Positions 28,338 to 34,305 of a stretch of 64,000 bases of DNA are shown in pieces. Where the stretch lies: assembly GCA_021613535.1 (NCBI GenBank), contig CP075496.1, positions 12,710,001-12,774,000 of the forward strand. The letters run 5' to 3'. The translations under genes and the position numbers were made by a program. Numbering within the stretch: the stretch's first letter is position 1; the number at the start of each line of letters is the position of its first letter. This stretch comes from Adineta vaga (lineage: Eukaryota > Animalia > Rotifera). The notes under the pieces were generated by a model. It ran no database searches. It had not been told where the DNA came from and saw only the letters and a list, made by a program, of their open reading frames with translations.

Positions 28338-29022
28338 ATGGGTAATAAAGTTGAAAAAAACCATATTGATCAAAGTGTTATTGATAAATTAATTGAAGAT
28401 ACCGGCTTAGAACGTGAAGTTATTATCGCTTGGAGGTAAGTGAAATCTATGATGTGAAATAAAGACGTTCAATTGATTTAGAAAACAATTTCTATTGGCA
28501 TGTCCATCTGGCAAAATGAATCGAAGGAAATTTTATAAATTCTATCGTACATTACGTGTTGAATCCGATGAAAAAGTCAAAGAAATAGCAAATTTTGTAT
28601 TTGCAGCATTTGATCGAGATTCAAATGGAAAAATTGATTTCACGGAATTTCTTTGTACGTATTTTTATCTAAAAGAGATTTTCTTTTTCTTATATTAAAA
28701 AAAAACAAAACGAAAATTCAATTTAGGTGGCTATGCGATAACTTCATTAGGCACAACACGACAGAAACTTGATTATGTTTTTGCACTTTATGATAAAGAT
28801 AAAAATAATTCAATTGATCGAAAAGAAATGATACGAGTTATTTCGGCAATGTATGATCTATTAGGTAAATCGAAAATAGATTATCCACCTGAACGTTGTG
28901 TTGAAGATGTGTTTTCATTAATCGATGTTAACAATGATCGATCGTTAACTAAAGATGAATTTATTGATGGTGTTATGAACAATCCTTATCTTTCCGATAT
29001 TATTTCACCATTTAATGAATAA
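28338..29022 (+). CDS. Neuronal calcium sensor / recoverin-family EF-hand protein (3 exons)
   Basis: MGNK myristoylation start, CPSG non-binding EF1 signature, EF loops DRDSNGKIDFTE, DKDKNNSIDRKE and DVNNDRSLTKDE. Confidence 0.92.
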
Positions 29023-30667: not shown

Positions 30668-31818
30668 ATGCACGGTAACAATATGCTCGATAATCGTAAA
30701 TATTCTATATTTATTAATAAAGATTTAGATTATAAATTTTGAAGTTTTTAGGAGGTTATAAGAAATTTATCTTCATTCTTTTGGTTATCTGTGCTTTGGT
30801 GACTTTTATTTATATTATTCAACGTCCTTCTTCATTTGACAAAACGATCAATACAATTGATGCATCATCTTCATGGACAAGTTGTAAGCATGTATCCGTT
30901 GAAGAATTAGATCAATGGTTTCATTCAAAAGAATGGAAAGAAATTCCGAAAATCATCCATCAAACATGGAAAAATCAAACTTTACGTGAACGACAAGCGC
31001 AATGGAGTCAAACTTGGTGTAAACAATATACAAATTGGCGATATCATCTATGGACTGATGAAGAAAATGATGTTTTTGCTCGAACCAAATTTCCATGGTT
31101 TTATCCCACCTATAAACAATTATCACCGGCAATTCTTCGAGCAGATAGTGTACGCTATTTATATATGTTATATTATGGTGGACTATATGTAAGATAATTT
31201 AATTTAATATAAGATTGGTATTTTTTTTTTCGTTTCTTCTAGCTTGATTTAGATTATGAATCAATTCGACGTGTTGATCATGTATTCATAAATAAAACTG
31301 TTGTTTTTGCGTTGTTAAACTATTCATTTCAATCGAAGAATAGTGTACCCAATTCATGGATGGCTTCACAACCTGATCATCCATTATGGACTTATATTCT
31401 CTATCGAATCATGTTATTATGGTCTCGTGTAACAGATAAAGAACGAAATGAATTTTGGAATGGAAAAGCCGAGTTTTTTACGGGACCACAGTCACTTTTC
31501 GAAGGTTTAATGTTTTATATTCAATCGAATCAATATACTGATCAATCACTTGATCAATTACTTGGAAATCAACAAAATCTAACTTCGGATGCGATATTAG
31601 ATGTAGCAAATATAACATTTCTTGGACCGAAATTAATGAATGCATATGATTGGATGAATGGAATTGGTGCTGATGTATGTTCAGCAGAACGAGCAACATT
31701 CGATGAAAGTAAATGTAAAGATATAGTGAAACCAATCTATGGAATTACATACTGGTCACATTCTTATGGACATGGACATGAAAATGATGCGAATTATTTA
31801 CGAAAGAATGGAACTTGA
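30668..31818 (+). CDS. GT32 DXD glycosyltransferase, SUR1/CSH1/OCH1-like type II membrane protein, about 346 aa (exons 30668-30695, 30752-31188, 31243-31818)
   Basis: N-terminal TM, IPKIIHQTWK, YHLWTDEE, RADSVRYLYMLYYGGLY|LDLDY (DXD formed across the splice), NSWMASQPDHP, TGPQ. Confidence 0.88.
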
Positions 31819-32202: not shown

Positions 32203-33520
32203 ATGATGACTTGTGACGAAAGATCGTGTACTAATTTACAATCAGCTATTTGTCTTCATTGTACTCGTTATTTATGTACCTTACATATTGTTGAACATGG
32301 AACACGGCTTTTACAAGAAGCTGACGAATTATGTCAACAAATTAATCAAGTAGTCGAACATTTAAATAATTCCTTAGAACAAATACAAATAAAATGCAAT
32401 GAAGCAGTTGCTGCACTTGATACTTGGCGACAGAAAGAAATCGATAAAATCGAAGATAGATATGCAGAAAAGATTCAAGAAATTGAATCAAAACAAGATT
32501 ATTTAACAAATCTTGAAAATAATTTATTAGAACGACTTATTAAGAATGCCAAAGATCCATTGGAACAAATGCAAACACAAAAGACTGCAAATCGACAAAT
32601 GATTCAAACTATCAATCACACTCTGACAGAATTACAACAAGCAAGTAGAAAACTTGAATGGAATTCAATGGAATCATTAGATCAAAATACATCGGTCGCA
32701 ATCGAAAAGATGTCTATAAATACATCTGAACAAGATTATCATCAGAATAATTCATTACGTCAATCGAATTCGGGATCTTGTAATTTTATTCCATTAGTTA
32801 GACCAGAATCTGGATACAATCAAACTATAACTTCAATTTCATACTATTCACAACCAATGCCATCATCTACGACTTCTAGTTATCAAGTATCCTTTCCCAT
32901 ATCACCATTTATTTCATTACCACCAAAACCAATCGATTTCAAACATCTTCCTACACATTCTTCTCCAAAATTCATCGACTTCTTTTTAAACGTATCCGAC
33001 AATCATGATCATTTTTTAGATCAATTTCTTATCAATGTAAGTGAATTGTCTTTTGAATCGTATCATTACGTATGTTCTCTTAGAATTTCAATCGAACAGT
33101 ATATTTCAGCAACTTAATGATTATCTTATTATCTTTTCTCGAAGCATGGCATTCGAAAACAACACCAAAAGTTTTTAATGAACGTGTTTTATCCTATCAT
33201 ATCTTTACGATAAAGAAATACATCTTTGATCAAGATTCTGAACGAATTATCCTTGCTGCAATTCTCGTTTATATTCATTCTTGTCACTATGATGAAACTC
33301 GATCAGGTACATTTCATTTGAACAATTCTTATGCAATTTTAAATCGTATCTAGGTCAACTTATGTTGAATCTATTGCATCATTTTTTCGATCAGAAATGT
33401 CTTTCAAAGAATACAATTCTTGATTGGTATGAGAATGGTGATCAATATAATTATCCGACTTTTCAACAAGGAAAACAATGGGCTACATCGTTTATTGATT
33501 ATTTAAATAATACAGTTTAA
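32203..33520 (+). CDS. B-box-like Zn finger, coiled coil and C-terminal W2-like (eIF4G/eIF5/eIF2B-epsilon) domain protein, about 407 aa (exons 32203-33036, 33084-33306, 33354-33520)
   Basis: CDERSC...CLHC...LCTLHIVEH; heptad region with W..KEIDKI; after two 47-nt introns IKKYIFDQDSERIILAAIL...LLHHFFDQKCLSKNTILDWY...QQGKQWATSFIDYL*. Confidence 0.8.
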
Positions 33521-33609
33521 ATTTTTGTGTAATTTTTGTATTTAAGATCTAATAATTGTGTACATATCATGAAAGAAGAAAAAAACACCGACAACAACTA
33601 GAATAACAT

Positions 33610-33916
33610 TTATTCAATCTCTTTTGCTAAGTCTTCAACTAATGAATTCAATGATGTGGAATATTTACATCCTAAACATCGCATATTCACATAACATTCT
33701 AAAAGAAAAGAAGAAATATTCAAAAGAAATTCATGGTAAAATTGAATACTAACGAGCTAAACATAATAATCGCTCTTGATCATATTGATTCCAATATCTT
33801 TCCAGAAATTTCTTTCTCAATTCCCATTGTTTTCTACTTTCCGAAGGTAATCGATGAGTCTTTTCTAAGTCATCTGAATTAGGTGTTTCACCAACCAGCT
33901 TCGTTTCAGTCGACAT
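33610..33916 (-). CDS. XRN2-binding-domain (XTBD) microprotein, CDKN2AIPNL/PAXT-1-like, about 85 aa, 2 coding exons
   Basis: Not on the ORF track. HRLPSESRKQWELRKKFLERYWNQYDQERLLCLA|QCYVNMRCLGCKYSTSLNSLVEDLAKEIE* matches the XTBD pattern R..E...W..R..F / RL.CL / N...LGC.Y. Confidence 0.85.
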
Positions 33917-34305
33917 TTGATGAATAATCTGAAATGAATATTTTGCTTTTATCCCGTCAGTCTATTTTTGTTCATCAAAAGAAGAGGAAAAAAAAGGAAA
34001 CAACAAGAAAAGTGATGGAAATATATGTATATATATACACACCCACACCCACACGCAGAAAAAAACAAACAAAAATGACAAGTTCCTGAGATATTAGGTA
34101 GGCACAAAATGCATCGATACCAAAAACGAAAAAGAAAATGTTAGAGCACAAGAACAAAAAAATTTTAAGACAAAAAACCGGGTTATCTGATTCTTTTTTC
34201 TGTTTCGATTGAACTTTTTTTTTGTTTCGACTAGAAATCACAAATCATTGTTGAATATTTTGAGGAAAACAAAAGCGAAGAAATTTAATAAATTATCATA
34301 CAAAA

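What the first reader, a model, noticed from the sequence alone, without database searches (positions are those of the whole stretch)
32203..33520. B-box/coiled-coil protein fused to an eIF4G-like W2 domain
Seen: N-terminal C-x4-C-x7-C-x2-C-x4-C-x2-H-x3-H, a long coiled coil, a Ser/Pro linker, and a C-terminus visible only after splicing two 47-nt introns: KKYIFDQDSERIILAAIL...LLHHFFDQKCLSKNTILDWY...QQGKQWATSFIDYL. Known: W2 domains of eIF4G, eIF5, eIF2B-epsilon and BZW end with L(Y/F)D.D.L....IL.W followed by ..F..WL, and eIF4G has QQGK in the same place. W2 domains bind eIF2beta or Mnk. Inference: a RING-less TRIM-like scaffold carrying a translation-factor module, an architecture I do not recognise. 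It could act as a dimeric decoy or regulator of translation initiation in stress, desiccation or antiviral defence. The acidic AA-boxes look partly eroded, so its ligand may differ.
Basis: partly seen in the sequence, partly recalled or inferred. Interest (0 to 1): 0.75.

Follow-up and report, generated by a model that had tools for sequence, protein, structure and literature searches.

The report
Rotifer TRIM-like protein with repurposed W2
A real, spliced gene of a bdelloid rotifer belongs to a small family, found here in eight bdelloid species, that joins a zinc finger and coiled coil (predicted to pair as in TRIM proteins) to a W2 domain of the kind found in translation-initiation factors; the whole family lacks the residues W2 normally uses to grip eIF2, so it likely binds some other partner.

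Summary
The 407-aa gene model is right: both 47-nt introns are skipped in contigs of four probably-RNA runs and kept in a genomic-looking run, and Adineta ricciae orthologues are 57-61% identical end to end. The C-terminal domain is W2: Pfam E=5e-6 (below the curated cut-off), and the top seven of 48,161 solved chains are W2 domains. The architecture is a family: 21 named proteins from eight Adineta and Rotaria species, and 14 of 19 metagenome loci, carry both halves; A. vaga P0015 has two W2 domains. The N-terminus is predicted to form an antiparallel TRIM-like dimer (0.57, controls 0.00; possibly from memory of solved TRIMs). 'eIF4G-like' is not favoured: eIF2B-epsilon scores best and the donor is unresolved; QQGK occurs in 1 of 46 domains. 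The AA-boxes are lost rather than partly eroded: the second Trp is absent in 46 of 46 and there is no acidic tail. The domain stays under purifying selection (omega about 0.3), with no positive selection. Most likely a bivalent adaptor with a new ligand, not an eIF2-beta/Mnk decoy. No description found in the papers searched.

The parts
32203..33036 (+). Exon 1 (codons 1-278): zinc finger, coiled coil, Ser/Pro linker, first two W2 helices
   Evidence: single open frame; covered by RNA-like contigs without a joint; 55% identical to A. ricciae P0001 over its whole length
32212..32298 (+). B-box-like zinc finger, C4-C9-C17-C20-C25-H28-H32 (7 ligands; H19 also conserved)
   Evidence: sequence; all seven plus H19 conserved in at least 90% of alignment A6; Atlas neighbours are rotifer B-box-type clusters, 0.93-0.95; no Pfam B-box hit for this stretch
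32308..32667 (+). Coiled coil (about residues 36-155), predicted antiparallel homodimer centred near residue 82
   Evidence: one long helix 36-157 in the orthologue model; complex score 0.57, best control 0.00
32668..32922 (+). Ser/Pro/Thr/Asn-rich linker (residues 156-240), variable in length and sequence
   Evidence: 19 Ser and 7 Pro in 85 residues; 40-47% identity to orthologues against 64-72% elsewhere
32923..33517 (+). W2 (HEAT3)-fold domain, residues about 241-407, spread over three exons; first Trp kept, second Trp and acidic boxes lost
   Evidence: Pfam W2; Atlas 0.94; fold search; family columns
33037..33083 (+). Intron 1, 47 nt, GT-AG, phase 0
   Evidence: skipped in contigs of X1, X2, X4, X3; kept in X11
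33084..33306 (+). Exon 2 (middle of the W2-like domain)
   Evidence: 76% identical to P0001
33307..33353 (+). Intron 2, 47 nt, GT-AG, phase 1; position conserved in the family
   Evidence: skipped in X1, X2, X4, X3; same acceptor position in 18 of 19 loci
33354..33520 (+). Exon 3 (last helices of W2, degenerate AA-box region) with TAA stop
   Evidence: Pfam W2 E=5.4e-6 on this frame

Best explanation
This is a spliced member of a bdelloid family in which a B-box-like zinc finger and coiled coil, predicted to form an antiparallel TRIM-type dimer, are fused to a W2-fold domain that lacks the eIF2-beta/Mnk-binding boxes and likely serves as a bivalent adaptor for a different partner. Shown: gene structure, W2 fold relationship, family-wide fusion, loss of the second Trp and acidic boxes, purifying selection. 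Inferred: one fusion before Adineta and Rotaria split, since both halves give the same orthologue groups; a W2 copied from a translation factor (donor unresolved) took the slot that SPRY or NHL domains fill in TRIM proteins. The rod would dimerise and the flexible linkers would present two W2 domains (four in tandem-W2 members), binding a protein partner by avidity through the surfaces the family does conserve (the S-Y-L-x-A-W helix and the Y-x-G-F-x-x-A-K turn before the last helix). The partner is most likely a component of the translation or mRNP machinery contacted outside the AA-boxes, given the domain's origin; this last step is a guess. With no RING it would act as a scaffold or sequestering factor, not as a stand-alone ubiquitin ligase.
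For: Splicing. Orthologues 57-61% identical over 404-426 columns, W2 part 111 of 162. W2: 16 of 27 proteins hit Pfam W2 at E<=0.01, none above cut-off; ranks 1-7 of 48,161 are W2, Z 8.9-9.5, rmsd 3.5-4.7 A, 132-152 aligned. Family: 19 of 19 named genome proteins among the 46 hits, plus P0015 and P0022, have both halves; 14 of 19 metagenome loci have both in cis. Same orthologue groups in both trees. Dimer: 0.57 against best control 0.00, runs agree in at least 90% of contacts, pLDDT 83-84, pairs 87-76, 94-69, 101-61, 109-54 show an antiparallel register; mark reached by 17 of 29 eukaryotic solved homodimers and 0 of 30 single chains; solved TRIM dimers exist, so the pass may be from memory. 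Lost determinants in 46 domains: first Trp 46/46, second Trp 0/46, mean 0.87 acidic residues in the 12 after the last helix, acidic residues at the three AA-box-1 Glu positions of eIF2B-epsilon in 2, 2 and 10 of 46. Codon model omega 0.26-0.31 for W2 (13 loci) and 0.30-0.34 for the N-terminus (9 loci); omega=1 rejected by 2dlnL 60-105.
Against: No ligand identified and no W2 complex modelled. The W2 model is of the A. ricciae orthologue at mean pLDDT 60.8; Foldseek gave no E<=0.001 (best 0.067); Z near 9 is below the level the tool calls safe for helical bundles, and MA3 of Pdcd4 is close behind (8.8). The full-length model (pLDDT 43.8) matched no W2 or TRIM chain in its top 50. No Pfam B-box hit for the window protein or among the 25 leading families of 49 members. 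One AA-box-1 column (117) is still acidic in 20 of 46, and eIF2-beta also binds through hydrophobic helices (PMC12439599, passages), so weak residual binding is possible.
Confidence: 0.5

Rival explanations
1. A 5MP-like decoy: the dimer still binds the eIF2-beta N-terminal tail or Mnk, with avidity making up for lost charge, and dampens initiation under stress.
For: W2 fold and first Trp kept; eIF2-beta binds eIF5 partly through hydrophobic helices (PMC12439599, passages); dimer predicted.
Against: Second Trp absent in 46 of 46; by position it matches yeast W699/W391, named as important for eIF2 binding in PMC3877758 (passages; the equivalence is my inference). No acidic tail; AA-box-1 column 123 is basic in 22 of 46. 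AA-box 2 is the main Mnk site (PMC9177959, passages).
Confidence: 0.15
2. An immune bait: the W2 copy mimics translation factors that pathogens attack, and the TRIM-like rod reports or captures the attacker.
For: Multigene family with 23-37% identity between paralogues, apparent tandem copies and doubled W2; TRIM scaffolds do acquire recognition domains, e.g. TRIM5-CypA (PMC2533329, passages).
Against: No positive selection: M2a equals M1a for the N-terminus, W2 p=0.055 (F3x4) and 0.92 (F61); orthologue groups are stable across species; no induction data; no viral relative.
Confidence: 0.15
3. A stand-alone mimic of the eIF2B-epsilon catalytic domain that contacts eIF2-gamma and promotes or blocks nucleotide exchange.
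For: eIF2B-epsilon is the best sequence match in PDB (E 2e-5 to 4e-5) and tied first in structure.
Against: The match covers only the C-terminal half (profile 73-157 of 160). No acidic residue reaches 60% conservation in profile columns 1-104 of 23 domains, so there is no counterpart of the essential E569 (PMC3877758, passages).
Confidence: 0.07
4. The C-terminal domain is a generic helical repeat whose likeness to W2 is chance or limited to the last helices.
For: All Pfam scores are under the cut-off; Foldseek E>0.06; moderate model confidence.
Against: Four methods pick W2 first: Pfam, Atlas with ten of ten best family hits agreeing (15), profile against PDB, structure ranks 1-7 (41).
Confidence: 0.05

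Closest known systems
W2/HEAT3 domains of eIF2B-epsilon (3JUI, 1PAQ), DAP5/eIF4G2 (3D3M, 3L6A), eIF5 (2IU1, 9F79), eIF4G1 (1UG3)
   Same: Eight-helix fold at the C-terminus; hydrophobic pattern and first Trp of AA-box 1.
   Different: No second Trp, no acidic tail, few acidic residues in AA-box 1, a family-specific Cys (41 of 46); no MIF4G, MA3, GAP or nucleotidyl-transferase-like partner domain; P0015 carries W2 twice.
5MP1/5MP2 (BZW2/BZW1), eIF5-mimic proteins
   Same: Non-catalytic protein ending in W2; the model for a W2 decoy.
   Different: 5MP keeps its AA-boxes and binds eIF2-beta K-boxes (PMC12439599, passages); this family lacks them and has a zinc finger/coiled-coil front.
RING-less TRIM-like proteins (e.g. 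TRIM29, TRIM44, TRIM66) and TRIM-NHL/TRIM-SPRY scaffolds
   Same: Zinc finger, then about 120-residue coiled coil, linker and C-terminal domain; predicted antiparallel dimer; Atlas structure neighbours of P0016 include RNF207, TRIM39-like and TRIM71 clusters at TM under 0.5 (lead only).
   Different: Single B-box1-like finger with seven clear ligands and no Pfam B-box score; W2 is not among the human TRIM C-terminal domains named in the table key of PMC2533329 (passages).
Unnamed rotifer B-box-type/coiled-coil clusters in the ESM Atlas
   Same: Best feature matches of the N-terminus, 0.93-0.95, mostly Rotifera.
   Different: Their C-terminal parts were not examined; the first cluster may be exon-1 calls of this same family.

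Membership tests
W2/HEAT3 domain | Eight-helix HEAT fold superposable on solved W2 domains | tested here: met
   Orthologue model (pLDDT 60.8): ranks 1-7 of 48,161 are W2, Z 8.9-9.5; Foldseek top rows W2/MA3 but E>0.06
W2/HEAT3 domain | Pfam PF02020 at or above the gathering score | tested here: not met
   26.8 bits against 30 for the window; best relative 27.5
W2/HEAT3 domain | Two invariant tryptophans (PMC9177959) | tested here: not met
   First 46 of 46, second 0 of 46
W2/HEAT3 domain | Acidic/aromatic boxes 1 and 2 | tested here: not met
   33 of 46 have no acidic residue at the three box-1 Glu positions; tail mean 0.87 acidic in 12 residues
W2/HEAT3 domain | Binding to eIF2-beta K-boxes or Mnk | not testable with these tools
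   No rotifer eIF2-beta or Mnk sequence obtained; needs pull-down
eIF4G/DAP5-type W2 | Closer to eIF4G than to other W2 domains | tested here: inconclusive
   eIF2B-epsilon best by sequence; eIF4G1 weak (E=0.19) but spans profile 10-157; DAP5 tied in structure; no tree with canonical W2 sequences could be built
eIF2B-epsilon catalytic domain | Conserved catalytic Glu (yeast E569) in the N-terminal helices | tested here: not met
   No acidic column at 60% or more in profile columns 1-104 of 23 domains; residue-level superposition not available
B-box zinc finger | Eight zinc ligands binding two zinc ions (PMC2533329) | tested here: inconclusive
   Seven spaced ligands conserved; 48 of 55 proteins with the motif have no further His/Cys just after the last His; conserved H19, or the Glu before H32 (38 of 55), could serve
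B-box zinc finger | Match to Pfam B-box models or solved B-boxes | tested here: inconclusive
   No Pfam hit for the window finger; one relative at E=0.73; none in PDB profile search; Atlas zf-B_box clusters at 0.86
TRIM/RBCC | RING domain | tested here: not met
   Protein begins at the finger; 22 codons of open frame upstream hold no Cys; none in relatives
TRIM/RBCC | Coiled coil after the B-box forming an antiparallel dimer | tested here: met
   Prediction only: 0.57 against control 0.00; may be from memory of solved TRIM dimers

The most novel reading that the evidence does not exclude
Bdelloids copied a translation-factor W2 domain onto a TRIM-like dimer and turned it into a new recognition module: a family of baits or adaptors that control translation, or catch pathogen proteins aimed at it, through a W2 surface that has not been described.
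Probability: 0.25. Interest if true: 0.75.

Novelty: new variant of a known kind. Interest (0 to 1): 0.5.

Why it matters
Studied W2 domains sit in a handful of initiation factors and work through acidic boxes. Here a W2 fold has been kept under purifying selection across two bdelloid genera after losing those boxes, on a scaffold that other animals use to display recognition domains. It points to a second usable surface on W2 and to a lineage-specific control or defence layer in animals known for extreme stress tolerance. Without a ligand or phenotype it remains a well-supported new architecture, not a new mechanism.

Tried and rejected
No whole genome was held, so copy number in this organism and its canonical W2 genes were not counted. 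Pairwise Nei-Gojobori ratios near or above 1 for the N-terminus looked like positive selection but are an artefact of very low GC3 (0.02-0.17); codon models give about 0.3. The apparent M2a gain for N/F3x4 (p=0.009) was an optimiser failure; refitted M1a equals M2a. Allelic differences, 11 nonsynonymous and 4 synonymous among the 15 coding rows shown (9 rows were not shown), do not differ from the neighbour gene (5 and 4; Fisher p=0.41). The interferon-gamma hit of the thin profile (E=0.045) vanished with the family profile. P0024 is a repeat-protein false hit, dropped. First metagenome scan found nothing; viral contigs nothing. No listed run is on record as RNA; runs X8-X10 gave only short pieces. 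Expression look-up failed: locus-tag numbers do not match the supplement's gene ids (file cut when stored), and only a 7-kB supplement of PMC10809525 was held, so stress-expression tables were not seen. Earlier-findings searches by place and sequence were blank.

Full report
Gene model. The window is about 30% GC. Splicing 33037-33083 and 33307-33353 from the ATG at 32203 gives 407 aa. Because 20 GT-AG intron pairs would also give an open frame, I tested the joints. Both appear in contigs of runs X1, X2, X4 and X3, from two studies, and not in X11, which reads through both introns. The tool only guesses that these runs are RNA; the missing introns support the guess. One X1 contig links the 3' part of exon 1 to exons 2 and 3. 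No single contig spans the whole gene, but exon 1 is one open frame with no joint. Adineta ricciae proteins P0001, P0002, P0004 and P0005 align end to end at 57-61%, so the organism is inferred to be a bdelloid close to Adineta.

C-terminal domain. Four methods name W2. Pfam gives E=5.4e-6 on the last exon, under the curated cut-off, and 16 of 27 relatives hit at E<=0.01. The Atlas gives 0.94 to W2 clusters. A model of the orthologue's domain (pLDDT 60.8) ranks seven W2 chains first among 48,161 (Z 8.9-9.5), with Pdcd4 MA3 next at 8.8; Foldseek lists the same folds on top without significance. A 32-row family profile finds human eIF2B-epsilon at E=4.4e-5, eIF5 at 0.079 and eIF4G1 at 0.19; a second profile agrees and gives DAP5 0.75; a third, of one clade, gives only E=0.09. 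The donor is therefore unresolved and 'eIF4G-like' is not favoured.

A family, not a single gene. A profile search of 1.84 billion representatives gave 33 hits, no canonical initiation factor among those named or read. A full-length profile gave 46 hits; the 19 named genome proteins all have both halves, 26 others are metagenome calls of the N-terminal part and one of the C-terminal part. With P0015 and P0022 this makes 21 named proteins from Adineta ricciae, A. vaga, A. steineri, Rotaria sordida, R. socialis, R. magnacalcarata and Rotaria sp. Silwood1 and Silwood2. P0015 has two full W2 domains; P0022 and P0029 show a partial second or first copy. In raw DNA, 14 of 19 metagenome loci carry both halves in cis; most of the other five begin or end inside the gene, and L019 is doubtful; 18 of 19 have the intron-2 acceptor at the same place. 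Trees of the two halves recover the same orthologue groups (P0014, P0018 and P0058 left out of the N-terminal tree as incomplete), which fits one old fusion followed by duplications. No monogonont or non-rotifer protein was among the named hits, but the searches are limited by shared words and lengths.

What the W2 has lost. W2 domains bind eIF2-beta or Mnk through two acidic/aromatic boxes (PMC12439599 and PMC9177959, passages read), and the C-terminal Trp matters for eIF2 binding (PMC3877758, passages). In 46 family C-termini (90%-cluster duplicates dropped) the first Trp is invariant, the second is absent in all, the tail holds on average 0.87 acidic residues in 12, and the three box-1 Glu positions of eIF2B-epsilon are acidic in 2, 2 and 10 of 46. 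No acidic column is conserved in the N-terminal two thirds, so a counterpart of the exchange-factor Glu is unlikely. Conserved instead are a Cys in box 1 (41 of 46), an S-Y-L-x-A-W helix (Trp 21 of 23) and a Y-x-G-F-x-x-A-K turn. Codon models on metagenome loci of one clade give omega 0.26-0.31 for W2 and 0.30-0.34 for the N-terminus, reject neutrality, and show no positive selection. The domain is being kept, not decaying.

N-terminus. Pfam and PDB profiles find no B-box; the Atlas places the region with rotifer B-box-type clusters and lists TRIM-like models as weak structure neighbours of P0016. Two copies of residues 1-160 with zinc fold as an antiparallel dimer, score 0.57 against a best control of 0.00, with runs agreeing in at least 90% of contacts and pLDDT 83-84. 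The mark was reached by 17 of 29 solved eukaryotic homodimers and 0 of 30 single chains, and solved TRIM dimers may have been remembered. It works like a TRIM rod; membership of TRIM fails on the RING and is open on the B-box.

Mechanism. The best reading (0.5) is a bivalent adaptor: the rod dimerises, linkers present two W2 folds, and these bind a partner other than eIF2-beta K-boxes or Mnk, most likely in the translation or mRNP machinery; the partner is a guess. Rivals are a residual 5MP-like decoy (0.15), an immune bait (0.15), an eIF2B-epsilon mimic (0.07) and a false W2 (0.05).

Novelty. Listings of seven full-text searches showed no paper on this fusion; only 2 papers held two of 'bdelloid', 'B-box' and 'W2 domain', both unrelated. 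A term search of PMC11258130 found no B-box or eIF mention. UniRef already auto-labels P0014 and P0018 as W2 domain-containing. Subscription papers and supplements I could not see may list the family. Verdict: real, new variant of known parts, interest 0.5.

Noticed in passing
window 33556-33961 (minus strand): Convergent neighbour encoding a short XTBD (XRN2-binding domain) protein, Pfam E=3e-8, with a 55-nt intron at 33699-33753 skipped in X1 and X4; its transcribed 3' region comes within about 40 nt of the W2 gene's stop and an X1 contig runs through both.
   Followed up: partly
window 30736-31818 (+): Upstream neighbour with a DXD glycosyltransferase domain (PF04488, E=1e-8), transcribed in the same runs.
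   Followed up: no
window 28477-29022 (+): EF-hand calcium-sensor-like gene in two frames.
   Followed up: no
P0028/P0057 (A. vaga) and P0055/P0061 (A. ricciae): Locus tags two apart, and equal contig lengths, suggest a conserved tandem pair of family members.
   Followed up: no
L005, minus strand 146-352: A second, partial W2 exon on the opposite strand next to an intact family gene; possibly an inverted duplicate.
   Followed up: partly
L001-L017, exon 1: Third-position GC is extremely low (0.02-0.17) in these environmental family members against 0.19 in the window gene.
   Followed up: no
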